Position numbers and translations under genes: made by a program. Of a stretch of DNA of 64,000 bases, positions 1 to 62,765 are shown one piece after another. The notes beneath the pieces were generated by a model. It worked only from the letters and a program-made list of their open reading frames with translations. It did no database searches and had not been told where the DNA came from. This stretch comes from Naegleria gruberi (taxonomy: Eukaryota). The stretch is from assembly GCA_000004985.1 (NCBI GenBank), contig GG738849.1; one strand, given 5' to 3'. Every line of letters begins with the position of its first letter. The first letter of the stretch is position 1.

Positions 1-1133
1 TAATATCGTAGCCCTCCTCTTGTGAAATTCCCTTAACACCATTTGATCTCATAAAGTAAAAGAGAGCTCTATTTCTATCATTGTGTTCCTTTTCGCTTAG
101 ATATGTACATTGAGAGTATGAAATTTGTGAATTATCATCATTGCTGTCAAGTGTTGTTGGACAGCCGGCCATTCTTTGGACGAATTGGTAAATGTTAGTA
201 AATCTTTTACTACTACAATCCCTTGGTGAAATTTGACTGGCACAAACCAATCCGCCAGTACTCTATTTCAATAATTAATATTTGTATCAGATAAATTCAC
301 TTACAACAAAAGGATTGTGTGGTTTCTTTTCTTCATTCAAGGAGAAGGCATTAAACTTCAATCCGGATGGTTCTCTACCAATAAATTGATGTAGGTCAGT
401 ACCCTGCTCTCTTCCTAAACAATATAACATTGGAAGAATACTACATTTTGTAAAAAACCCTATTGAATTAATTAGAGTTAGAACATACCAGTGTTGTAAG
501 GTAAATACCTTCTTGGTACCATTTCCAAAATGTGCAACTTGTCCATCCACTGTACAAAGGGAAATTCCAAATAGATTAGGATCAGCATTTGCTAACTCTG
601 GTATATAATCAGGAAGTATTCCACTTGAATTTTTTTGAATAATTTCAAATATTTCCGAAATATTATTACAAAATCCTATTCCATTTAATTTCAATATTTT
701 AAAAATATGGTTTCCATAAATATTATTGTAATTAAATAATTTTACCTTGAAAATTTGGAATTGATAATTTTCCGTTCAAAGCCTTTTGTAAAATATTTGG
801 TTTATCGCTTGTCATCCATTGTGTAAATTCGACAAAGCTAATTTTTCCACCTGTACAATTCACTGGACATTTGTAGAATCCATACTTTTTCAAATAATTT
901 TTAACTTCCTCCTGTGTAATGTATCCATCTCCATCTACATCAATTTCTGAAAATTTAGATTGTAATTCCATTCTCTTTCTATTGACAATTGCATCCATAC
1001 TTTCAAATCTTGGGGAGTTTAAATTAGAGAGAGAATTAATGCGAGGGATACCCATAGTGTTATCTTCTGTAGGAATAGAGGTACCATGATTTGATTGTTC
1101 GGAACATTCCTCCTCTGGCGATGAAGTTAGCAT
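1..1133 (-). CDS. Glutaminase (kidney-type), partial. The C-terminus runs off the window start. Three exons: 746..1133, 305..675, 1..262. Introns are 676..745 (GTAAAA..ATAG) and 263..298 (GTAAGT..ATAG, 36 nt).
   Basis: Exon 2 has the conserved glutaminase core (DYIP.LA..DP..FG.S.CTVDGQ ... REPSGL.FN...LNE..KPHNP.V). After the GTAAGT donor the frame continues into SERESGDRN-like sequence (LSEKEHNDRNRALFYFM). Exon 1 encodes the N-terminal EF-hand-like region (DVDGDGYITQEEV) and joins in frame, with a carried G completing GGA. The ATG at 1131..1133 was verified. Confidence 0.8.
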
Positions 1134-16761: not shown

Positions 16762-18698
16762 ATGAATCACAAGAGACTTTTGAAGGAAATTGAAACTAAA
16801 AAGAAGATTACCGATGTTAAATTCTTCAAGGATGATGATAAAAACGAGAAGGAGAAGAAAGTCTTTTCAAGTAGTAACATGAACATTGCCTCCAAGAATT
16901 ATGGTGTGCTTGTTTATGATTTGGAAGGTAAAAAATCACTTTCGGAAATTATTCAAAACTCCAAGTTGAAGGCAAAATATAACATGGATGCCAAGAATTA
17001 CTTTAACTTGATTGATGACTTGGAATTCCCAACTGCTTGTAATAATATTTGTTTAGCAGCTGATGAAAACCATTTGTGGACATCAGGTATCTACAAGCCA
17101 CAACTCCGTTGTTTTACTCTTGATGATTTGTCAATGAAATTCAAGAGACACGTAGATCTTGAAATTATTAAAATTTGTCCACTCACTTCAGATTTTAGAA
17201 AATTGGCAACTCTTTGTCAAGATAGATATATTGAAATTCATGCTCAATGGGGTAGTTACTATAGATTCAGAATTCCAAAATATGGTAGAGATTTAGTTTA
17301 TCATGACCATAGTGCAGAATTGGTTATGGTTGGCTCATCTAATGAAATTTATAGATTCAATCTTGAACAAGGCATGTTTAGAAAACCAACATTAAGTTAT
17401 ACAAATACAGAAGCTATCAATACTGTAAGAATTAACCCAGTTCACCAACTTTTTGGACTTGGGTGTGATAATGGATTTGTGGAATGTATGGATCCAAGAT
17501 CAAAGAGAATTATTGGATGTATTGATGCTTGTGGATCAATTAACACTATGCTACCATCAGAAGTATCTTCATCTTCAATAACAGCTTTCGAATTTGATAA
17601 TGATGGTATTGGATTTGCAGTTGGTACAAATGCTGGTAAAGTTGGATTATTCGATTTGAGAAAACAAGGTGCTGTCTATATTAAGGACCATAACACTGAT
17701 TTACCACTTGTTAAAATTGCTTATCATGATTCATCAAAGAATATCTTCTCTGCAGATACTCAACTTGTCAAGATTTGGGATAAATCAAATGGCAATAACT
17801 ATACAAACTTGGAATTATCGGCAAAGATTAATGATTTCTGTATAATTCCAAACAGTGGTATGATTCTTGTTGGTGGTGAAAGATCAAAGATAAAACCATA
17901 CTATATTCCAAGTTTGGGACCTGCTCCAAAGTGGTGCTCATTTGTGGATCAAATCACAGAAGAACTCGAAGATTTCAAGAAGAATACTGTTTACCAAGAC
18001 TTTAAATTCCTTACAATGGAAGAAATTCAAGAGTATGTATTTTATGAATTTTTCAATTACTTAATAATTATAGTCTTGGATTGGAAGATTTATTCGGAAC
18101 AGATCTTTTACGACCATACATGCACGGTTTCTTCATCAAGATGTCCCTCTATAGAAAGGCTCTCGAATTTAACAATCAAAAGCCAACTGAACCACAAATT
18201 GATCTTGAAAAGATTGAAAAGGAATCTGAAGACAGACTCAAGGAAGAACGTATTAAGAATCTTGTTGATTTCATTACATCTGAAGAAGGTGGTGAGGAAG
18301 TTCCAAAGAAAAAGAAGAAGGGTGCTATTTCTTCTGTCAATGACGAAAGATTTACAGAAATGCTCAATGATCCAGACTTTAAAGTGGATACTAAAGAAAA
18401 ACAAAAGAAGTTGGATGAAAGAAAGTTAAAGAGAAAGGAAAAGGTTGAAAACACTAGGCATAAGGATGATGAGTATGATGATATTGGAATTTATGGTATT
18501 GAGTCAACTCAATCACTCAATTATGACAATAGCAATATTTTAGATTTTGGTGCAAAGAGTAAGGAAGAAAGAGGAATGACATTTGAAAAGCGATTAGGAC
18601 GAAAGAATGATAAACACAACAGTGAAGATCCAGCCTCAAAGAAAAGAAAGAGAGTTAGAGGTGAAAACAAGAAAGCCAAACATGTAAAAAAGTATTAA
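16762..18698 (+). CDS. NOL10: Nucleolar protein 10 (NOL10/Enp2). Two exons: 16762..18032 and 18074..18698. An alternative ATG lies at 16879.
   Basis: Nearly colinear with NOL10 (RCFTLDD.SMKF, DRYIEIHAQWGSYYRFRIPKYGRD, IPSLGPAPKWCSFVD). The 41-nt intron 18033..18073 (GTATGT..ATAG) joins ..MEEIQ-D-LGLEDLFGTDLLRPYMHGFFIKMSLYRK, recreating the conserved NUC153 motif. Track ORF 18081..18698 is its second exon, and its 'M' is a TTG. Confidence 0.85.
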
Positions 18699-37237: not shown

Positions 37238-39246
37238 ATGATGAGAAATTGTAAAAATTGGTTTCATGTTGTTAACAAGACGAGAAATGGTCTTGCATCA
37301 ATGAATAAGAAGAATACATTAACATCTTCCGCACTTGTTAACAGCAGTAATATGCTAATGAATAGAAGTTTTCAAAAGTCAATCATCTCATCATCATTTA
37401 ACAAACAACAATATTCAATGGAAGATTACTTTCATTTGGGACATATTCTTTGTGATCAACATGTTAAAAAGGATGAAAAATCAATTGCGTTGAACTATTT
37501 GACAAGTGATGGAAAATTTCAATATACTTTTAAACAATTGAGTGATTATAGTGAACAGTTTGGTCAATTTTTGAAAAGTCTTGGTTTGAAACGTCAAGAT
37601 AGAGTTTCAATCCTATTACCAAAGTGTCCAGAATTAATGATAAGTGGTCTAAGTATTTGGAGAAATGCAATGACCTATGTTCCTCTATTTACTGCCTTTG
37701 GACCAGATGCTATTGCACATAGAGTTTTTGACTCTGAATCCAAGGTTATCATTACTGATGAGGCTAATCGCCCAAAATTAGATCCCATTCTCAGTCAATT
37801 AGAAGAGAGAGGTGTTAAAATTGTCATTGTTGAGAAGAGTATTGCAGAGAGTATGGCCTATAGAGTAGTGGATGGAAATGCACCACTATTAACCTCATTT
37901 AGCTCTTTCAAACCAAATGAATACAGATTTTGGAATAGTTCAATTTTATCTAGTCAACAAAGACCAATCATTAGAGATTCTACTGGAATGGATAAGAATG
38001 ATATCATGATTCTCTTGTACACTAGTGGTACTACTGGTAAGAGCAAGGTTAGTATTTCTTCTTGTCAATACACTTATTTTTCTAACAATTATTATCAATT
38101 AACATCCATATTAATTATTATTTTGAATTATTTTGCTTGAATATCCAATTTTTAATCTTTATTTAATAATAGGGTGTACCAGTTTCAGTAAAAGCTTTGG
38201 GATCATTTGAAGTGTATATGAAATATGGACTCCATGTTGAACATGATGATGTATTTTTAAATATTGCAGACCCTGGTTGGGCCTATGGCTTGTATTATAA
38301 TGTTTTAGGAACTCTTCTATTGGGAATTCCAACTTATTTTGTCAATAGATCATTCAATCCTCAAGTAATTTATGAAATATTACAAAATGAACGTGTGACT
38401 AACTTTGCTGCAGCTCCAACAGCATATCGAGCAATGAAAGCACAAGGTCCAGAACTAGCTCAACAATACAAGTTTTATCTCAAAAAGGCCAGCTCAGCAG
38501 GAGAAGCATTAAATAACGAGGTAGTTACCTTCTTTGAGAATATTTGGGGTACAAGAATTAAGAGTCACTATGGTCAAACTGAACATGGTATGCTTATTAA
38601 TTATCATCACCATCCAGAATTAGCTCTTTCATCTGTATCGGAGGTAACAACTATTGGACAACCAATTCAAGGATTTACAGTCACTCTGTTGGATGACGAC
38701 TTTAGAGAAATTTCAGAACCCTATGTGAAAGGTCATTTGGTTATTGATATTGCTAACTCACCTGCTAGGTTCTTTACTGGATACTGGAATCAACCTGAAA
38801 AAACTGAGGAAAAAATGGTTCAATCCCCTTCTTATACAGATGGTCGTTTATTTGAATTGACCGGTGATAGTGCCTATAGAGACGAAAATGGCCTTTATTT
38901 CTTTAGTGGAAGAAGTGACGATATTATCACATCTTGTGGTTATCGTATCTCACCAAAAGAAGTTGAAGATTGTCTGATAGAACATGAAGCTGTTTTTGAG
39001 TCTGGAGTTGTAGGTCAAAAGGACGAGTTGAGAACTGAAATGGTTGTTGCATTTGTTGTGCTCAGATCAGGTTATCAGCCAAGCAAACAACTTGAGCAAG
39101 AGTTGTGTGAACATGTCAAGAAAAAACTCTCAGCTCACCAATATCCAAAGAGAATTTTCTTTGAGGACAAGCTTCCATGCACCGAAGCTGGAAAAGTTAA
39201 GAGAAATATTTTAAGGGATAAGGCAAATGCAATGCTATCTCAATAA
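37238..39246 (+). CDS. AMP-dependent synthetase/ligase (medium-chain acyl-CoA synthetase-like). Two exons: 37238..38047 and 38173..39246.
   Basis: The AMP-binding motif YTSGTTGKSKG is split by the intron 38048..38172 (GTTAGT..ATAG, 125 nt) and rejoined in frame as TSGTTGKSK-GVPVS. Downstream are YGQTE, GD and the C-terminal lysine region. The N-terminus looks like a possible mitochondrial presequence. Confidence 0.8.
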
Positions 39247-41497: not shown

Positions 41498-43144
41498 TTA
41501 TCGGTGGGGAGAGGCACCAGGAGAGCTAGTGATATTAGAATCAACAGTAAAATTGTTATTAGAAACAACAATGTTAGGTACACTCATGTGGTGTCGAAGC
41601 ATTTCTTGTCTCTTTCTGAGAGATCTTTTGAATTGTGTTTGAATGTGAAAGTATTGAAGAGTTTCAGTAGCCAAATCAAGTGCCACTTTTCCTTCTTCAT
41701 CTTTTATCGTTACGTCAGCTCCATATTCTATTAAAATTCTGACACAATCTGGAAATCCTCTTAATGAGGCCTTTTTTAAATAATTGAAATTAAATAAATT
41801 AAATAAATTGAATAAAACATAAAGTTAAATTAATAAATTCAATAAATATATATTATTAATAAAGAGGTGAATAAATAATAACATACATAATGAAGTGCAG
41901 TTCTTCCAAAAGTATCTACACTATTAATTTTTGCTCCAAATTGTAAGAGCACTTGAAGGACAGATCCATGTCCCTTCGATGATGCAAAATGCAAACTTGT
42001 CCAATTATGTGATAGTTCACATGTTTCATTCACGTAATGTTCTTGTTCTTGTGGTGTCAAGTTAGTTTGATTAATAAGGTAGTATGCAGTCTCATCGTGA
42101 CCTTGTTCTGAACAAACCATTAGACAAGAGAGTCCGCTTGTCAAATCACGTTCATAAATTGACACGTTGTATTGAAGGATGAGTGAGACAATATCTGTAA
42201 AACCAAATGAACAAGCCATTAACATGGGTGAATAACAAGTTGATGATGAGGAGGGTGATGTTGATGAAGATTCACTTCCTGTTGAGCCTCCACTCAAACT
42301 TCTCTGATGGTGAGAAAGTCTCGGAATGTGAAGAATGGTAGAAATTGAAGTTTTTGGGTAGGGTGAAAGATCTCCTGCTGAAGAAGATGAAGAGGTAGGA
42401 TTGTTAGGATGAAGAGGAGCACCATATCTTAGTAACAATTCACAAATGTGAACATGATTTTTCTGAATTGCAAAGTGAAGAGGTGTCATGTATTGAAGTG
42501 AGGGAACTGTTGCAGTGATACTGGCATTATTATTGAGTAGTAAGGCACACATCTCAAAATCACCATTCTCTGCGGCTGCATGAAGACATGTTTTCCCAGT
42601 CTTGGTGGGTTCATTAGGTGAAGCTCTCAATTCGAGTAGCAATTTGGCAACTTGCAGATGATTATTTTCAACTGCTCTATAGAGTGCAGTACAACCGTAT
42701 TCATCTTTTTCATTGATGGAAATGGTTGTACACTCTACTACTAAATTTTGAACTGTTTCAATATCTCTAAAATGTTTAAATATCCACATTTCCATAAAGT
42801 TTGTATTTTCATATTTAATTTAATCATCACCATGTTGTAATATATTAACAATAATAATATTTCATTTCAACAACAGTATTATTTACGGAAAAAGTAACCA
42901 TTCATAGATTCATTATTCGTACAATGATGAGTATTTTCCAATTCAAAATTAAAACTTACCCATTAGAGGCAGCTTTTGCCAATCTACTTGCTTCAAATGA
43001 AAAGGTCTTTGGGTCTGAATAATCAAGTAATCTCTCCTAAATTTATAAAATAATTAATTTTATCACAGAATTCCCCAAGTTTGTAAATACTGCTACTATA
43101 ACAATTAAAGTACTAACATTTGAAGGTAAAAGATGTATTCTCAT
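41498..43144 (-). CDS. Ankyrin-repeat protein. The four-exon model is 43118..43144, 42960..43036, 41887..42766 and 41498..41770.
   Basis: Multiple ANK repeats (G.TALH.A...GH...V..LL..GA..N). The splice AASNG-DIETVQNLV recreates a canonical ANK consensus. GRTALHY-ASLRGFPDCVRILIEYGADV completes a repeat across the 116-nt AT-rich intron. Introns are 43037..43117 (GTTAGT..TTAG), 42767..42959 (GTAAGT..TTAG) and 41771..41886 (GTATGT..AAAG). The last-exon ORF 'M' in the track is a GTG. Confidence 0.6.
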
Positions 43145-55640: not shown

Positions 55641-58604
55641 TCATTTTAATTGTTTGTGACTGGCATTACTTGTGTTCAGTTTGGAATTAATTTTGTGTAA
55701 AGATCTTGGAGAGACAGTTCCCTGTTTGATAATATTCAATTCCTCACTCTTTTTAAGAATTTTCCTCTCAACATCTGGATCAATATCTTTAATTTCCTTT
55801 CTCTTCTTATCTATTAAAACTTTCTTAATAAATGACTCAGATAATAGCTTTGGTTTTACAGAAAAACTGAAACTTTTTTCTGAAGCTGACAAACCAGATC
55901 TTGGTGACTCGTCGTGGAATTCATTTTCCCATTTCTCTAACAGAGTCATTTCCTTCTTTTCATTTTTCATTTTGAAATGAGTTTTCTTATTGTAAATTAC
56001 TGTATTTGAGAAGAGTCCATCTCCGCCTACAGGTTTAACAAATGATTCACTTTCTTTTTTGTATAGTATATGATTGGTTATTCCTTCATCCTGTTTGGCA
56101 GTGAGAAATTCTCTTAATCTGTGTTGAGTATCGACACTACTTGGCTGATGAGGAATACCTCCAATCAAGCCGTCCAAATACCCGCTATAGAAATGTTTGT
56201 GACGTAGGGGGACATAGTTTCGTGTTGGACGGTTGCCTGACTTGATTTTGAAGCTAAGATTGTGATCAGAAACTTGGGTGATTAAGCAATCCACCAGATC
56301 GTGATTTTCCTTCTTTTCTCGCACAAATGAAAGGAGGAATAGTAGAAATCTTTGAATTTTTGAAAAGAGTAGATATTTCCTCATTTTCTTCTTCCTTTCC
56401 TTCTCGAAAAATTGAAGGAAAATTCTGATAAATTGGGAAAAGGATTGAATATTCGAAAAGCAAATATTATTTCCAAAATCCAAATGTTTGTGACCACTAA
56501 CAATGGATCGTTCATGTCTAATCAACAATTCCTCCATTACATCTGGAGAATATTTACAAAATTCTAGTAATCCTTTGGCAGAAACTGATTTCAAATGGCT
56601 CAACAAGTTACTATTACAAAAAATTAAAATATAATGTTCTGCTACCATTTCCAAATCTAAATTACTCCAAATGTGGTCTTTGGAGAGAATATTTGTCAAC
56701 ATTTGGAAACAACTTATACGCTGATACAGATAGCTGTTGTAATCTTCATTACATCTGATAACATTGAGTGCCTTACTGTACAAAATGTTCCAAAAATCAA
56801 ATATTGGTGAGTTGGCTATTACATTAAAATACTTAATTATCTAAACACTATATGAGTCAACTTACAATGTTGTGCATAAGCAGCAATAAGTGCAACTACC
56901 TTTCCAGAAAGACTGAAATTAGTAGAGGTGATACTTTCAATAATTCGTTGTAGCTTTTTTTCTGACAAAATTTTCAAATTAGCATTACCAGAGCTTCCCT
57001 TATTGGCTGCAATTGTATTGTTATCATAAATATTTTCCAAATAACAACAACTTACCACTATTTACATAGGATATAACAATATTTAGGCAGAGAATTATCT
57101 TTTTCTGATCATGATTTTGACTTTCTAGAATATCCAACATTTTGTTAATGGCTCCAGAATGCATGAAATATAATCTAAACTCTTGTGTATCAGAAATGTC
57201 TGATAGAATATGTAAAACCCCCATAAACACATCGTATTCATCAATGTCAGTATGTGATGTTGTTATGAAACAATTCACTGCTGCCTTTACAATCCCATAC
57301 TGTTTCACAAAAATTGTGGCATATTCCTTATTTCTTAACATTCTGGCAAGGGTTTTCACTCCCCAATATTTTGAAGTTCTATCTTTGAAAGCTAATTGTG
57401 GGGAAAGTATATCGCCACCACCTGCATCAATAATTTCCTTCTGGAATCTTTCTATGGCTGACATGTGGTACACTACTTCGTCGCAAACTCGTCTCACATC
57501 CCTTGAGATTGTTTCCTTGATAGTTGTCAATAGAGATGGTACAAAAGTTGTGGAGAAGAGGTGAGACTTTTCATAGATCCAATCCTTCTTTACAAATGAT
57601 CTGAGAACAACAACTTGAATGAGCTCGCATGAATTTGATCTCAAAATCCATTCTACAAATTCCAAGTTTTGATATCTATCAATAAGAGCTATAATCTTGT
57701 GTTGTTTGGATTCTCTCACTATACAATCAAATGTCTTGGCAATACAGTGTTTGGTTAAATAGTCACGTTCTTGATATCTGTTCATCAAAAATACTATCAT
57801 TTGATGGTTGTCCAGAAATGGATCAATCGTGTACTGATTATTAATTAAATTGAAACAAGTATTGGCAGCTGATCTTTTCGTCTCCACATGAGTAATGGAG
57901 GTGTTCATGAGTGATCTCAACATATTGACCAATTCTAATTTTTCTGCATGCATCATACTCACAGCAATTTTCTCAAATTTTGTAAAATTACCAAATACTT
58001 TAGCTATCAAATCAACCATTGTAATATCTACTTCTCTGTATCCTTCTATATGTTTCCTCAATACATCCCCCAATAGTTCCAATCCCCAAACTTCAATCAC
58101 TCTCGAAGCACAATCTCCTCTCAAATCAGACATGGCAAGAGTTTTAAAAACTTCTTGCAATAGTTCAATATTTTGTTCCTTTTTAAGGAGACACATTATT
58201 GGAAGGAGAGCTCCATCAGAAACAAATCTTCCACTGCTACAAGGATGTTGAGCTAATAATCCAGCACATCTAACTGCCACTATCTGACATGGAACATTCA
58301 TTGATGAAATAATTGGTGCCAACACTTTGAAACATTGTTTTTCCTTAACCAATTTCTGAGTATATTCCTTCTCCTTCGCCAAATTACATAATGCCATCAA
58401 ACAATACTGAATAATTTGTAAATTCTCTACATTTCCAATTAGATGTAAGATGGCATCCAAGGCATCAATGACCAATAAGAGCTTTGTTTTCTGCTCCGAT
58501 AAATAAAAAAACAATTTACTACTCTCCAATTTAGAATCCTCTCCTCCTTTAAACGAAATTAAAATGTAATGATCGATGGTTCCTCCCGAAGTATTGGCTC
58601 TCAT
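55641..58604 (-). CDS. Armadillo/HEAT-type repeat protein of unknown function. Three exons: 57056..58604, 56866..57006 and 55641..56815. They merge three track ORFs.
   Basis: Introns 57007..57055 (GTAAGT..GCAG, 49 nt) and 56816..56865 (GTAAGT..ATAG, 50 nt) join the ORFs in frame. Repetitive helical ARM-like units. No enzymatic motifs. Confidence 0.55.
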
Positions 58605-58831
58605 TATTATGATTTAAAATTATTATTATTATATTAATATTGTATTTAAACTACTATCAATCATAATCAGTTTCTTTCTTTTATTCTAAAATACTTGAAA
58701 TCTGTAATAAAACGGTTGAAAATTCAGTTAGAGATAACATCCTTTGATGGAGGTTTCTTGTTTAATCTTTAAATTTTCAAATTTATAGCCGTTTATGAAG
58801 AGTTTCATTTTTTATTAATTAAATAAGAAAA

Positions 58832-59169
58832 ATGTCTAAATGGCAAGAGAAGTGGAAACGTTCGGAGAGGGAAGAAGTAGACAATATGAAAAAGAAGGAT
58901 ATTACCTCTCCAGATAATATTGTTTGTATTTTTCAATAATATATATTTTAATATTTAATTTCAAAATTAATGCAAATATTATACAAATTAAATATGTATT
59001 ATATTAAAAATAGTTTACACTTGTATTGGGTGTTGGTATCATTGGATTGGGTGCTTTATTATTTAATACTTTTTTTGCTAACGTAGACAGTGATGGAAAT
59101 GAAATCAAGGTAAAAGCAATCACTGCCGATTATGATAACACTGTTTATCATCCCGAAGAGGAACTCTAG
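58832..59169 (+). CDS. Candidate small (81-aa) single-pass membrane protein. Two exons: 58832..58921 and 59014..59169.
   Basis: ATG, then 30 codons, then a GTTTGT donor and AAAATAG acceptor (92-nt AT-rich intron). The second exon encodes FTLVLGVGIIGLGALLFNTFF (TM) and an acidic tail ending in TAG. Not in the supplied track, because each piece is below 60 aa. Confidence 0.35.
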
Positions 59170-59259
59170 AAGAAGAGAATTTGAATTACAATTTTTCATC
59201 ATGTGAGAACACTGTGAGATAATGGATCATTGATGAATTGATGAAGAATTTGATGGGCA

Positions 59260-61737
59260 ATGAACTTGGATCTATGCATACTGGCATGTTCGTCAACAGA
59301 CAAAACACAACAATTAAAAATGTCAGCACTTCAACCATCTGTGGAACCCATTCGATTTATTGGTCAGAAATCAGAGAGTGGCAATACACCAACAATAAAT
59401 GTTCCATTTAAATCTATTGTTAGTCATGCAATGGCATCAACTATTGTGGATCCGTTCAGTAATAAGAATGAAGATATTCCCTTCTCTCTCTTTCTATTTG
59501 GTGGTCAGATAAATAACAAAAGAAGTGACGGAATGTTTGAGTGTCGTATTGAAAAGATGGTTGCCTATGATGAGAAGGAAGTTCAAGATTTATTATTGGA
59601 AACAAAAGTTGCCAATAATTCAATGTTGACCATTACAGAATTTATCACTTGTGAGAAGAGGGATGGTTGTTGGCCATCTGCTCGATCTCATCATCAAATG
59701 GTTTATAGACCACCTAATGATGAACATATTGATGGAAGTTTGGTTTTATTTGGTGGACAAGATAGTCAATTTAAAGCACTTGGAGATTTATATGAATTTG
59801 ATATTCATACTAGAGAGTGGAAACAAATAGTTGAACAATCTGGTCAATTGTGGCCTACTCGTAGACATGGACATTCAATGATATATAGACCTAGTAAGGA
59901 CAGTCTTGTAATTTTGGGAGGTGTTGATACACTAAACAGAACTATTTTTGAACCATTCGAATATCTATTCCCTGAAAAAAAATGGAAAAAGATTGAATTA
60001 ATAGCCAAGACTGGTAGTGCACTCTCCCTGACAAGCACTTCCTCTATTGATCCACTCTGTTTAAGGCCTCGTGCTAATCATTCTGCTGTTTTGTACAATG
60101 CTCAAAATTCAAGATTTGTTCAATTTCACACTTTGAACAATGCAGAAACTGTTGAGGATGGAACTCAAGATGTTATGATTATATTTGGAGGTAATAATGA
60201 ACAGGATTATTACAATGACATGTTTTCTATCAATCTTGGTACTTTGAACGTCGATATTATTATGAGTTCGCATCGTATTAATGTCTATCCTCGAATGAAA
60301 CATACGTGCATTATTACACGAGGTGAAAAGGCCTTGGTTATTGGTGGAAACAGAAAAGCCAGATATGATGAAATGAAAGTCGTCTCTGGAAAGACTTCAA
60401 AATCATTCTTCATGAGTGTTTTGGGAAGTATAGCACCAAAATCCAGCATTGATGCACCAATTCTCAATGGAATGGTAGCCAGAAATTTAATTACCGATTT
60501 TACTGTTAAAAATCAAGAAGCAGAACTTGATTTTAATGACATTTCACATCATACCACATGCAGTGTTTCTCCTTCATGCTTTATCTTTGTTGGTGGTCAA
60601 TTCAATAATGTTGGCGAAAAGATGACCACCAATACAAAGAATGACAAGATTTGGGTTTGCAATTTGGGTCAGTACTCTGAAACTATTGAAAAATTACAGA
60701 ATGCTGAACAAAAGAAAGAATTTGGAAAGGAGTTTTACAGAAGAATGCTAGACAATTTGGGAGAGTATGGACCTATCGGATATGATTTGAGAGTTAACGT
60801 ACTCAATGAAAAGACGTTCCTTGTTCACAAATTTATGCTCTCCAGATTTGAATATTTTAGAAAGCTCATCAAAGAACACTCCTCTCATCAAGTTGGAGGC
60901 ATTGTTGAGATACCAATTTCTGATGCTTCAGTTGATACAATCAGTAATGTCATTGACTACATTTATGGTATTGAACCACCAGTTTTTAGCAATCCAGAAG
61001 AAGTCCAAATCCTGACCAAATATTGTGAGAAACACTCTATGGGATCAATTGTCAAATATACTCATGGAAAGGTTTATCTCCAAAGATCGGATTATGAATC
61101 CTACTTGCCAGAAATTCAATTACTTTTATTCTTCAAGAGAGTGTACATGGGAGAATTCCCTGAATTGCATCAATATTTCAATTCTACTGTTCGTCTAATT
61201 ACTCAAGGTGAAAATGCAGAAAACACCAATATTGATATTCAACTTCCTTTGCAAATTCTTGTAAATAATGATTTTTTCCATGGATGTTTAAGAGACTTGT
61301 ATATCAAACACAAACTGCACGGTCAAGATTCTCAAAATTACATTATTGAAATTGATAATTCAATTTTCCCATTCCTCGACACTAGCTATTTTCCAATTAT
61401 TGAAAGATATATTGCCACTCTCTATCAGGCACCAGTTCATATTTTTAGCTCTGAAGGAGAAGCTGTAGTTTCACAACTCATTCAATTATATTTGGTCAGT
61501 AATTTATTGAGTGATACATATATGGAAGTATTGATTATGGACTCAATCAAGAGAAGAATTTCATTTGAAAATGCATTCCAATTGTTATGTTTTGCTTATC
61601 AACATCAATCACCTAATGAAGTTGTATTCATTTACAATGAATGTATTCGAAAGTTGAAGGAAGTTATTCCGTTGGAAGATGTGAACAAAATAATCAATTT
61701 CCTCAATCAAGAATACGCCAAACAATTTGATATTTAA
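59260..61737 (+). CDS. Kelch-repeat plus BTB/POZ protein (LZTR1-like architecture).
   Basis: N-terminal Kelch blades (LFGGQ.., R..H.MVY, W.P, LGG) and a C-terminal BTB region (YDLRVNVLNEKTFLVHKFMLSRFEYFRKLI). The start may be the internal MSALQPSV. Confidence 0.6.
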   Translation: MNLDLCILACSSTDKTQQLKMSALQPSVEPIRFIGQKSESGNTPTINVPFKSIVSHAMASTIVDPFSNKNEDIPFSLFLFGGQINNKRSDGMFECRIEKMVAYDEKEVQDLLLETKVANNSMLTITEFITCEKRDGCWPSARSHHQMVYRPPNDEHIDGSLVLFGGQDSQFKALGDLYEFDIHTREWKQIVEQSGQLWPTRRHGHSMIYRPSKDSLVILGGVDTLNRTIFEPFEYLFPEKKWKKIELIAKTGSALSLTSTSSIDPLCLRPRANHSAVLYNAQNSRFVQFHTLNNAETVEDGTQDVMIIFGGNNEQDYYNDMFSINLGTLNVDIIMSSHRINVYPRMKHTCIITRGEKALVIGGNRKARYDEMKVVSGKTSKSFFMSVLGSIAPKSSIDAPILNGMVARNLITDFTVKNQEAELDFNDISHHTTCSVSPSCFIFVGGQFNNVGEKMTTNTKNDKIWVCNLGQYSETIEKLQNAEQKKEFGKEFYRRMLDNLGEYGPIGYDLRVNVLNEKTFLVHKFMLSRFEYFRKLIKEHSSHQVGGIVEIPISDASVDTISNVIDYIYGIEPPVFSNPEEVQILTKYCEKHSMGSIVKYTHGKVYLQRSDYESYLPEIQLLLFFKRVYMGEFPELHQYFNSTVRLITQGENAENTNIDIQLPLQILVNNDFFHGCLRDLYIKHKLHGQDSQNYIIEIDNSIFPFLDTSYFPIIERYIATLYQAPVHIFSSEGEAVVSQLIQLYLVSNLLSDTYMEVLIMDSIKRRISFENAFQLLCFAYQHQSPNEVVFIYNECIRKLKEVIPLEDVNKIINFLNQEYAKQFDI

Positions 61738-61860
61738 TAATAAACATGTAGCATTTCCATAATAATAACAAACCAAAAGAGGTACTGTTATCTTGGATTC
61801 TATCCATGTAGATTATCACAACGAGAAAATTTCCAAACAAAAAAGCCAAAACAAAAAACA

Positions 61861-62661
61861 ATGGTAGAATCTTCATTAAGTATCACAGACGGTATTGAAT
61901 GGTTGAAGCAAGAACATCAACTTATCAGACAATTATTCGATTCATGGCATAACTCTCACATACAGCACGAACGAAATGCTATCGTTGAAAAGTTTATCAG
62001 TGAAATCTGTATCCATGCAAGTATTGAGGAAAGATATGTCTATCCATTAATTGAGGAGAAAGTTCGTGGTAGATATGGTAAACTATTATCAGATAGAAAC
62101 TATCTCGATGACCAATTGAATAAGGAAATGCTTCAATTCCTAATGGACAATGTCAATGAATTGAAGAATGATAATGAAAGAAACATGTTCAATAAGGTAG
62201 TTGAGAAATTCATCACCATTGAAACTGATCACTTGAAACAAGAGGAGGATGATGTCTTTCCACTCTTGAAATTAGCACTCACATCTCAAGAGCTGAAAGA
62301 AATGTGTGACAATCTCAAGAATGGACGAACATCAGCTCCAACTCATCCTCATCCAATGAGCCCAATGAAGTTTGGTAGTAAAATCTTGCATCCAATTGCT
62401 GGAGCATTCGATAAGATTATGGATAATATGGGAATGGGTCTGAATCAACATTTAGATTTACCTCCACTTACTGAAACAATTGAAGAATCTGTCAGCACTC
62501 AAGCAAAACCATTATTGGAATTTGATACTCCAACTACAATTGGAAATGTTGAGAGTAAGCAAATGACTGATGTACCATTGACTACCTTGCAAGAACCAAA
62601 ACAAAAACAACCAATCTATGTGGAGAATGAATCAATTTTCGATACTCCTTCTAATTTGTAA
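61861..62661 (+). CDS. Hemerythrin HHE cation-binding domain protein.
   Basis: Paired H..E/H-containing helices (EHQLIRQLFD..H, HASIEERYVYPLIEE, E.DHLKQEEDDVFPLL) typical of the HHE family. Confidence 0.5.
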   Translation: MVESSLSITDGIEWLKQEHQLIRQLFDSWHNSHIQHERNAIVEKFISEICIHASIEERYVYPLIEEKVRGRYGKLLSDRNYLDDQLNKEMLQFLMDNVNELKNDNERNMFNKVVEKFITIETDHLKQEEDDVFPLLKLALTSQELKEMCDNLKNGRTSAPTHPHPMSPMKFGSKILHPIAGAFDKIMDNMGMGLNQHLDLPPLTETIEESVSTQAKPLLEFDTPTTIGNVESKQMTDVPLTTLQEPKQKQPIYVENESIFDTPSNL

Positions 62662-62765
62662 ATATCTTGAATAAAAAACTGCATTGCAAATCTATTGTTT
62701 CAATCTTTGTTCATTCCTTGACATTTCAATTCATTTGGTTGTTATTTCATTACAGAACTGTTGGT

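What the first reader, a model, noticed from the sequence alone, without database searches (positions are those of the whole stretch)
58832..59169. Unlisted small two-exon gene for an 81-aa single-pass membrane protein
In the 650-bp gap between the ARM-repeat gene start and the Kelch-BTB gene, an ATG-initiated 30-codon exon ends at a GTTTGT donor. After a 92-nt AT-rich intron ending AAAATAG, the frame continues into a 21-residue hydrophobic helix (FTLVLGVGIIGLGALLFNTFF) and an acidic tail, then TAG. Neither exon reaches 60 aa, so the ORF track misses it. This is the kind of small subunit-type protein (ER/mitochondrial membrane complexes) that gene finders drop.
Basis: inference. Interest (0 to 1): 0.5.

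Follow-up and report, generated by a model that had tools for sequence, protein, structure and literature searches.

The report
Missed small membrane-protein gene in Naegleria
The amoeba Naegleria gruberi has a real but unannotated two-exon gene for an 81-residue, probably single-pass membrane protein that is conserved with its intron in a related amoeba; it is an ordinary annotation gap, and what the protein does is unknown.

Summary
Window 58832-59169 (+) reads ATG, 30 codons, GTTTGT, a 92-nt intron (9.8% GC) ending in ATAG, 51 codons, TAG. The spliced product is 81 aa. The window is Naegleria gruberi NEG-M, and the public proteomes searched hold neither this product nor the ORF products of its two exons.

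The gene is real:
- Its codon-usage score (+26 bits) matches true genes of the window. The other five frames score -22 to -77.
- No such model arose in 6000 random intergenic-like sequences.
- Three metagenome contigs from a Naegleria-related organism carry an orthologue (about 60% identity over exon 2). It has the same ATG context and the same phase-0 intron position (..I|F[ST]LVLGV..).
- Among those contigs, 7 substitutions are synonymous and 2 are not. The exon indel is 3 nt and the intron indel is 7 nt. Conservation drops outside the coding sequence.
- Their flanking genes differ, so the ORF is not merely the Kelch-BTB 5' UTR.

The product has a variable charged N-terminus, a 23-residue hydrophobic helix (invariant G36, G41, G43, N48) and an acidic tail with an invariant ADYDNTVYxPEE motif. 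Pfam, PDB and a 1.84-billion-protein search gave no known family. The guess of an ER or mitochondrial complex subunit is untested. No transcript data could be reached.

The parts
58820..58834 (+). Start region: in-frame TAA (58820-58822), A-rich context aagaaaaATG, start codon 58832-58834
   Evidence: Sequence. The context matches the A-rich contexts of other genes in the window, e.g. aaaaaaaATGTCA and aagaaaATGAAT. The orthologue has gaagaaaaATGAAA.
58832..58921 (+). Exon 1: 30 codons, a charged and poorly conserved N-terminal region (MSKWQEKWKRSEREEVDNMKKKDITSPDNI)
   Evidence: Codon-usage LLR is +8.2 bits. The orthologue's exon 1 is 25-26 codons, also ends in ATT (Ile), and differs between haplotypes by a 3-nt in-frame indel.
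58922..59013 (+). Spliceosomal-type intron: 92 nt, phase 0, GTTTGT...AAAATAG, 9.8% GC
   Evidence: Confident introns in the window are GTATGT, GTTAGT or GTAAGT ... ATAG, 41-125 nt, 10-18% GC. The only AG is the terminal one, and retention gives a stop after 5 codons. The orthologue has an intron at the identical position and phase, 41 or 34 nt, GTATGT..TACTAAT..ATAG.
59014..59169 (+). Exon 2: 51 codons plus TAG. The open frame starts exactly at the acceptor (the intron's TAG is in frame), and there is no in-frame ATG
   Evidence: LLR is +18.0 bits, 0.353 per codon, above the 99th percentile of stop-free null stretches. It is about 60% identical to the orthologue's exon 2 (59-62% depending on the alignment; P0005 E 9.5e-6, tblastn). 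dN is 0.33 against a saturated dS of 2.7.
59014..59079 (+). Hydrophobic helix, presumed transmembrane (residues 30-52 including the last codon of exon 1). Invariant G36, G41, G43, L45, F47, N48, F51
   Evidence: Kyte-Doolittle maximum 2.24. 23 uncharged residues in both lineages. AF2 predicts a helix at 27-52 with pLDDT about 75.
59116..59160 (+). Conserved acidic C-terminal motif AI[TV]ADYDNTVY[HD]PEE (residues 65-79)
   Evidence: Alignment. AF2 predicts it as disordered.

Best explanation
Window 58832-59169 (+) is a genuine, so far unannotated, two-exon protein-coding gene of Naegleria gruberi.

**How the product is made.** A GT-AG intron of 92 nt (58922-59013, phase 0) is removed. That joins a 30-codon exon to a 51-codon exon, and the mRNA is translated from the ATG at 58832 into an 81-aa protein.

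**What the protein looks like.**
- A variable, charged N-terminal segment.
- One hydrophobic helix of about 23 residues. It carries a conserved face of small residues (G36, G/A38, G41, G43) and a conserved polar Asn48.
- A conserved acidic tail, AIxADYDNTVYxPEE.

**Shown here.** The gene structure, its coding constraint, and its conservation with the intron position in a Naegleria-related lineage.

**Inferred.**
- It is a single-pass membrane protein. The orientation is ambiguous by the positive-inside rule.
- It probably works as a small accessory or regulatory partner. The helix would pack against another membrane protein or against itself. Small-residue faces and an intramembrane Asn are classical drivers of helix-helix association.
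- The conserved Tyr-rich acidic tail would serve as a short binding motif.

Its compartment and partner are unknown.
For: **Structure.** It is exactly as described.

**Organism and annotation status.** The window is N. gruberi NEG-M. The 81-aa product, the 35-aa unspliced ORF and the 47-aa exon-2 ORF are all absent from a collection of about 15 billion proteins that includes NCBI, UniRef and EukProt.

**Codon usage.** The LLR is +26.2 bits in frame. True 81-codon chunks of the window's long ORFs give a mean of 18.9 (sd 8.5). The five other frames score -22 to -77.

**Chance.** 0 of 6000 random intergenic-like sequences reach that score. It is one of only two intergenic models in the whole window.

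**Splice signals.** Intron signals, length and GC match the window's confident introns, including a GTTAGT donor with T at +3.

**Spacing.** Accepting the gene gives normal spacing: 227 nt to the divergent ARM start and 90 nt to the Kelch-BTB ATG. Other tandem gaps here are 66-124 nt.

**Orthologue.**
- The only credible hit in 1.84 billion representatives was P0005, E 9.5e-6.
- It lies on contigs L002, L003 and L004.
- These show the same ATG context, an exon 1 ending in Ile, an intron at the same position and phase, and the same C-terminus.
- Among them, 7 substitutions are synonymous and 2 are not (binomial P = 3.6e-4).
- The exon indel is 3 nt and the intron indel is 7 nt.
- Identity is 96-97% in the exons, against 87% with 14 gaps upstream and 77% downstream.
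- N. gruberi against L002 in exon 2: differences by codon position are 16, 9 and 27 of 48.

**Independent unit.** The flanking genes differ (Ion_trans, an F-box-like gene and a 2'-5' RNA ligase).

**Lineage.** The only homologue of the L002 neighbour gene is from N. lovaniensis.

**Membrane helix.** Hydropathy, AF2 helix 27-52, and weak PDB profile hits that fall almost only on TM helices.
Against: - No transcript, EST, RNA-seq junction or peptide evidence could be reached with these tools.
- Only one other lineage carries a detectable homologue. None was found in two scans of JGI metagenomes or in the 22-kb N. lovaniensis locus examined.
- T at donor position +3 is the rarer form.
- The gap to the next gene is very short: 90 nt in N. 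gruberi and 32-36 nt in the relative. A shared transcript with the downstream gene is therefore not excluded.
- The membrane assignment rests on hydropathy and a low-confidence AF2 model (mean pLDDT 64.7). The helix has four Gly and one Asn.
- The charge distribution gives conflicting topology predictions in the two lineages.
- The proposed role in helix packing is inference only.
Confidence: 0.85

Rival explanations
1. The region is the 5' leader of the Kelch-BTB mRNA. The 81-codon ORF would then be an upstream ORF, or the first cistron of a bicistronic transcript, rather than a separate gene.
For: It is on the same strand as Kelch-BTB, only 90 nt upstream of the annotated ATG at 59260 (150 nt from the better-context ATG at 59320). 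In L002-L004 the next gene, on the same strand, starts 32-36 nt after the stop. That leaves little room for a terminator plus a promoter.
Against: The ORF is under purifying selection as a protein. It is conserved, with its intron, next to unrelated downstream genes in the two lineages. So its product is what is selected, not a UTR. Tandem CDS-to-CDS gaps of 50-124 nt are normal in Naegleria (and L005). Even if transcripts were shared, the ORF would still be a protein-coding cistron.
Confidence: 0.08
2. It is a chance ORF in AT-rich intergenic DNA, with no gene present.
For: There is no transcript evidence. The product is not in any annotation.
Against: The codon score is at the level of true genes and all other frames are strongly negative. 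0 of 6000 random sequences match it. It is conserved with the intron position, and 7 of 9 substitutions are synonymous.
Confidence: 0.03
3. The hydrophobic segment is not a membrane helix. It would be the beta1-GxGxxG-alphaA start of a Rossmann-type dinucleotide-binding fold (GVGIIG), making the ORF a fragment or remnant of an oxidoreductase.
For: LVLGVGIIGLGAL fits the GxGxxG fingerprint, and a later hydrophobic stretch ends in Asp (KAITAD). Such N-termini are classic false-positive TM predictions (general knowledge).
Against: - There are no Pfam hits at E <= 1 or 10 to NAD/FAD-binding families.
- No oxidoreductase appeared in the 1.84-billion-protein phmmer search.
- The PDB searches gave only one non-significant reductase hit, and it lay away from that protein's N-terminal GxGxxG region.
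- In the orthologue the second Gly is Ala (GVAVIG).
- The helix has no charged residue over 23 positions.
- AF2 gives one continuous helix at 27-52 and no strands.
- At 81 aa, with a conserved stop, it is too short for the fold.
Confidence: 0.02
4. The gene is real and its product is a divergent orthologue of a known small subunit of an ER or mitochondrial membrane complex.
For: The size and architecture are typical of such subunits: a short tail, one TM helix rich in small residues, and a short conserved tail. Such subunits often evolve beyond the reach of sequence searches (general knowledge).
Against: Nothing matches any such family in Pfam, PDB sequences or profile searches. The N-terminus does not look like a mitochondrial presequence because it is rich in acidic residues. 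Homologues are detectable only in one related lineage.
Confidence: 0.15

Closest known systems
Small single-pass membrane microproteins missed by genome annotation (for example vertebrate SMIM proteins, or the phospholamban, sarcolipin and FXYD type of regulators)
   Same: The product is under 100 aa. It has one hydrophobic helix with small and polar residues suited to helix packing, and short conserved tails. It was overlooked because each exon is below ORF-length cut-offs.
   Different: There is no sequence relationship to any of them. The partner, compartment and topology are unknown. The resemblance is architectural only.
MICOS subunit Mic10 and other glycine-rich small mitochondrial inner-membrane proteins
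   Same: It is small and has a Gly-rich transmembrane segment (GVGIIGLG).
   Different: From general knowledge, Mic10 has two TM helices forming a hairpin and a GxGxGxG motif. Here there is one helix with GxGxxGxG, and the second Gly is Ala in the orthologue. There is no Pfam hit.
Rossmann-fold GxGxxG dinucleotide-binding N-termini
   Same: The local motif is hydrophobic-GxGxxG-hydrophobic.
   Different: The family match failed on testing (see the rival explanations). The protein is too short, the motif is not conserved, and the predicted structure is one long helix.

Membership tests
Spliced nuclear protein-coding gene (N. gruberi type) | ATG start in the usual context, an open frame across the junction, and a stop codon | tested here: met
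   There is an in-frame stop 4 codons upstream of the ATG.
Spliced nuclear protein-coding gene (N. gruberi type) | A GT-AG intron with the local consensus, length and composition | tested here: met
   GTTTGT..ATAG, 92 nt, 9.8% GC. The window's introns are GT(A/T)(A/T)GT..ATAG, 41-125 nt, 10-18% GC. The first AG after the donor is the acceptor.
Spliced nuclear protein-coding gene (N. gruberi type) | Codon usage like known genes, in one frame only | tested here: met
   +26.2 bits against -22 to -77 in the other frames. 0 of 6000 nulls reach this.
Spliced nuclear protein-coding gene (N. gruberi type) | Conservation as protein, with purifying selection and a conserved intron position | tested here: met
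   P0005 and contigs L002-L004. 7 synonymous against 2 non-synonymous substitutions, P = 3.6e-4. A 3-nt exon indel against a 7-nt intron indel. Same phase-0 position.
Spliced nuclear protein-coding gene (N. gruberi type) | A transcript with the spliced junction 58921^59014, and a detectable protein | not testable with these tools
   No N. gruberi transcriptome or proteome is reachable. The exact product is absent from the protein collection, which includes Logan assemblies.
Single-pass (bitopic) membrane protein | One uncharged hydrophobic helix of about 20 residues or more, flanked by charged residues | tested here: met
   23 uncharged residues in both lineages, Kyte-Doolittle maximum 2.24. 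AF2 helix 27-52.
Single-pass (bitopic) membrane protein | Defined topology and actual membrane insertion | tested here: inconclusive
   Flank charges conflict. In N. gruberi K+R is 3 on the N side and 2 on the C side. In L002 it is 0 and 3. Insertion itself is not testable here.
Known small subunits of ER or mitochondrial complexes (the Pfam families for Sec61, OST, SPC, TOM, TIM, MICOS, ATP synthase and complexes I-IV) | A significant sequence or profile match to a curated family or a solved subunit | tested here: not met
   Pfam gave 0 families for the N. gruberi protein at E <= 10. The relatives gave only a chance SpoIIM hit. PDB phmmer and profile searches gave nothing below E 0.06.
Rossmann GxGxxG dinucleotide-binding domain | A match to NAD/FAD-binding families, a conserved GxGxxG, and a beta-alpha-beta fold | tested here: not met
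   There are no family hits. The motif is GVAVIG in the orthologue. AF2 shows a single helix and no strands.
uORF or 5' UTR of the downstream Kelch-BTB gene | The ORF is linked to the same downstream gene across species and is not constrained as a protein | tested here: not met
   The downstream gene differs and is not homologous. The protein is under purifying selection. The transcript structure itself was not testable.

The most novel reading that the evidence does not exclude
The protein would found a Naegleria-lineage-specific family of regulatory membrane microproteins. It would bind a larger membrane protein, such as a channel, transporter or organellar complex, through its Gly/Asn helix face. 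It would signal through the invariant acidic DYDNTVYxPEE tail, for example by Tyr modification or adaptor binding. It might also be co-transcribed with the E3 substrate-adaptor gene that follows it in both lineages (Kelch-BTB in one, F-box-like in the other).
Probability: 0.2. Interest if true: 0.5.

Novelty: new member of a known kind. Interest (0 to 1): 0.3.

Why it matters
- It adds a real gene to the N. gruberi gene set. The protein collection searched here, which includes NCBI, UniRef and EukProt entries, holds no such protein.
- It shows that short split genes are being missed in this gene-dense, intron-poor genome. Conservation of an intron position can rescue them.
- It defines a small protein family with a sharply conserved helix and tail motif. 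That family could be tagged or knocked down in Naegleria.
- Beyond that it is an ordinary annotation gap. It touches no long-standing question.

Tried and rejected
- **Word-index homologue search with the 81-aa product:** nothing, not even itself.
- **Exact look-ups:** the spliced product, the unspliced product and the exon-2 ORF are not in the collection.
- **Pfam on the product and its relatives:** nothing real.
- **PDB sequence and profile searches:** only chance hits.
- **The other two hits of the 1.84-billion-protein search (P0006, P0007):** these are repeat proteins matching low-complexity pieces. I rejected them on reading the sequences.
- **JGI metagenome scans:** one with back-translated patterns and one with a degenerate ADYDNTVYxPEE pattern. 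Neither gave a further homologue.
- **Synteny route into N. lovaniensis:** I used the homologue of the L002 neighbour gene. The 22-kb locus holds no copy.
- **Paralogue in the window:** none.
- **Rfam on 58500-59400:** no RNA family, so no snoRNA in the intron.
- **AF2 with the spliced relatives:** The run with P0005 gave a low-confidence model, so I did not run a fold search.
- **Rossmann reading:** considered and rejected (see the rival explanations).
- **Upstream in-frame ATGs in L002-L004:** rejected as starts. Their frame is not conserved between haplotypes, and the upstream region is full of indels that are not multiples of 3.
- **C-terminal EEEL as an ER-retrieval signal:** rejected. 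The relative ends in TDQL.

Full report
**1. What is there**

Reading window 58300-59700 and translating confirms every detail of the finding.
- ATG at 58832, in the context aagaaaaATGTCT, with an in-frame TAA four codons upstream.
- 30 codons to 58921.
- Donor GTTTGT at 58922.
- A 92-nt intron, 58922-59013, ending aaaaatag.
- 51 further codons and TAG, 59014-59169.

The spliced product is the 81-aa protein MSKWQEKWKRSEREEVDNMKKKDITSPDNIFTLVLGVGIIGLGALLFNTFFANVDSDGNEIKVKAITADYDNTVYHPEEEL.

Three further points about the junction matter:
- The intron is 9.8% GC and the exons are 35-37%.
- The intron's final TAG is in frame with exon 2, and exon 2 has no in-frame ATG. It can therefore be expressed only by splicing.
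- Intron retention would stop translation after five codons, before the hydrophobic segment. The only AG in the intron is the terminal one.

**2. Organism and context**

Exact look-ups identify the window as Naegleria gruberi NEG-M. The Kelch-BTB ORF 59260-61737 is XP_002681708.1. The hemerythrin ORF 61861-62661 is XP_002681709.1.

Pfam confirms the ARM-repeat ORF (57024-58604, minus strand) and the Kelch/BTB ORF.

The window is very gene dense, with tandem CDS gaps of 66-124 nt. The 655-bp gap is large for this genome. Accepting the small gene turns it into a 227-nt divergent gap and a 90-nt tandem gap, both ordinary.

The protein collection of about 15 billion sequences includes NCBI, UniRef and EukProt. 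It holds none of the 81-aa product, the 35-aa unspliced ORF or the 47-aa exon-2 ORF. So the gene is unannotated in those sources.

**3. Is it more than chance?**

I trained a codon-usage log-likelihood ratio on the window's long ORFs.
- The spliced CDS scores +26.2 bits: +8.2 for exon 1 and +18.0 for exon 2.
- That is above the 75th percentile of true 81-codon chunks (mean 18.9, sd 8.5).
- The other five frames score -22 to -77.
- Exon 2's per-codon score of 0.353 exceeds the 99th percentile of all stop-free stretches of 45-120 codons in the window.

I then scanned the whole window, both strands, for models of this form: ATG, donor, low-GC intron, AG, stop, 70-150 codons. Only two intergenic loci came up, and this is one of them.

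Random 655-nt sequences almost never produce such a model.

| Null model (3000 sequences each) | Sequences with any such model | Maximum LLR (bits) |
|---|---|---|
| Second-order Markov, intergenic composition | 11 | 6.5 |
| Second-order Markov, the gap's own composition | 33 | 14.4 |

None of the 6000 reached the observed 26.2 bits.

**4. Splice signals**

The window's confident introns join long open frames. They are 18033-18073, 38048-38172, 41771-41886 (minus), 676-745 (minus) and 263-304 (minus).
- Their donors are GTATGT, GTTAGT, GTATGT, GTAAAA and GTAAGT.
- Most of their acceptors end in (A/T)ATAG.
- They are 41-125 nt long and 10-19% GC.

GTTTGT...AAATAG at 92 nt and 9.8% GC fits this pattern. 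T at +3 is also seen in GTTAGT.

**5. Comparative evidence (decisive)**

*The hit.* A full phmmer search of 1.84 billion representatives gave one credible hit. P0005 is 46 aa, E 9.5e-6, and 62% identical to residues 34-79. The other two hits are repeat proteins matching low-complexity pieces, and I rejected them.

*The contigs.* P0005 and its two cluster mates lie on metagenome contigs L002 and L003 (ENA ERZ27315067) and L004 (JGI 3300002220). The gene caller had taken only exon 2.

*The same gene structure.* Reading the DNA shows this in all three contigs:
- gaagaaaaATG, then 25 or 26 codons ending ATT.
- GTATGT..TACTAAT..ATAG, an intron of 41 or 34 nt.
- TTT TCT TTG GTG ..., 49 codons, then TAG.
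- Product: MKRFL(Y)QKKDDSSE(C/R)SNSTNNTYESI|FSLVLGVAVIGLGMLFFNGMFVGDE(K/E)IKTRAIVADYDNTVYDPEETDQL.

The intron position and phase are identical to N. gruberi (..I|F[ST]LVLGV..).

*Coding constraint among the three contigs.*
- Substitutions: 7 synonymous and 2 non-synonymous. The Nei-Gojobori dN/dS is about 0.06, and the binomial P is 3.6e-4.
- Indels: the single exon indel is 3 nt and the intron indel is 7 nt.
- Identity: 96-99% in the exons. It is 87% with 14 mostly non-3n gaps in the 120 nt upstream, and 77% in the 32 nt downstream.
- Upstream in-frame ATGs in these contigs are not in a conserved frame.

*N. gruberi against L002 in exon 2.* dN is 0.33 and dS is saturated at 2.7. Differences by codon position are 16, 9 and 27 of 48.

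**6. An independent unit, not a UTR**

The flanking genes in L002-L004 have no similarity to the ARM or Kelch-BTB genes. They are:
- an Ion_trans channel gene, divergent;
- a 646-aa protein with a weak F-box, in tandem;
- a 2'-5' RNA ligase.

The only homologue of the 646-aa protein is N. lovaniensis C9374_007304, at 36% identity. That places the contigs in a Naegleria-related heterolobosean that is neither N. gruberi nor N. lovaniensis.

The 22-kb N. lovaniensis locus around that homologue has no copy of the small gene. Two JGI metagenome scans found no further homologue, nor did a profile search of 5.8 billion proteins.

One caveat remains. The next gene starts 32-36 nt after the stop in L002-L004, and 90 nt after it in N. 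gruberi. Overlapping or shared transcripts cannot be excluded. Even then the ORF is selected as a protein.

**7. The product**

The four sequences were aligned.
- The N-terminal 25-30 residues are charged and barely conserved.
- The conserved part starts at the exon junction.
- Invariant residues are I30, F31, L33-V37, I40-G43, L45, F47, N48, F51, then I61, K62, A65, I66, and A68-Y75 (ADYDNTVY), P77-E79 and L81.

Residues 30-52 are uncharged in both lineages, with a Kyte-Doolittle maximum of 2.24.

AlphaFold2 had only a two-sequence alignment, and its mean pLDDT was 64.7. It gives helices at 3-24 and 27-52 and a disordered tail.

Flank charges give opposite topology predictions in the two lineages, so orientation is open.

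From general knowledge, a face of small residues plus an intramembrane Asn favours helix-helix association. An invariant acidic Tyr-containing tail looks like a short linear binding or modification motif. On that basis I infer a small accessory or regulatory membrane protein. This step is inference, not a result.

**8. Comparison with known families**

Nothing matched a known family:
- Pfam gave 0 families for the N. gruberi protein, and only a chance SpoIIM hit for the relatives.
- PDB phmmer gave chance hits to UvrA and CylK.
- The PDB profile search gave only non-significant hits, nearly all to TM helices: ACE2, bacteriorhodopsin helix A, NCX and PsbJ.
- Rfam found nothing in the region.

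I tested the GxGxxG resemblance to Rossmann N-termini and rejected it.
- There are no family hits.
- The second Gly is Ala in the relative.
- The predicted structure is one long helix.
- The protein is too short for the fold.

Mic10-type proteins differ: they have two helices and a GxGxGxG motif.

**9. Verdict**

This is a real, unannotated, two-exon gene for a small, probably single-pass membrane protein. Its family has so far been seen only in Naegleria-type amoebae.
- The gene call is solid. It lacks only transcript evidence, which these tools cannot supply.
- The function is unknown, and the proposed mechanism is low-confidence inference.
- It is a routine annotation gap of modest interest.

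Noticed in passing
window 59230-59325: The annotated Kelch-BTB start at 59260 (XP_002681708.1) has a poor context, gatgggcaATGAAC. The second in-frame ATG at 59320 has attaaaaATGTCA, which matches the A-rich context of other genes. Three TTGATG(A/G) repeats with out-of-frame or dead-end ATGs lie at 59230-59257. The true start may be 59320.
   Followed up: partly
window 290-815, minus strand: A second unlisted small multi-exon coding model: about 126 codons, codon LLR +28. It has GT-AG introns at 676-745 and 263-304. It was the only other intergenic model found by the same scan.
   Followed up: no
L001 (ENA ERZ929261, contig k127_552785), matching window 61193-62682: This metagenome contig is 99.6% identical to the N. 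gruberi NEG-M sequence, with 6 mismatches in 1490 nt. An N. gruberi-like strain is therefore present in that public metagenome.
   Followed up: partly
L002, L003, L004: L004 has the flanks and exon 1 of L003 but the intron and part of exon 2 of L002. This is either a recombinant haplotype in the population or a chimeric assembly.
   Followed up: no
window 59260-61737; L002 457-2379: In both lineages the gene immediately downstream on the same strand looks like an E3 ubiquitin-ligase substrate adaptor. It is Kelch-BTB in N. gruberi. In the relative it is a weak F-box, E 7.5e-4, just below the Pfam cut-off. The two are not homologous. This may be coincidence, given how many such genes Naegleria has.
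   Followed up: partly
L003 2-925 (minus strand) and 1185-1446: In the relative, the small gene is divergently paired with an Ion_trans-family cation-channel gene. About 260 nt separate the two start codons.
   Followed up: no
window 57024-58604 and 55641-56783, minus strand: The ARM-repeat ORF product is not in the protein collection as a stand-alone sequence. A 380-aa ORF follows on the same strand. The annotated gene is probably a multi-exon model spanning both.
   Followed up: no
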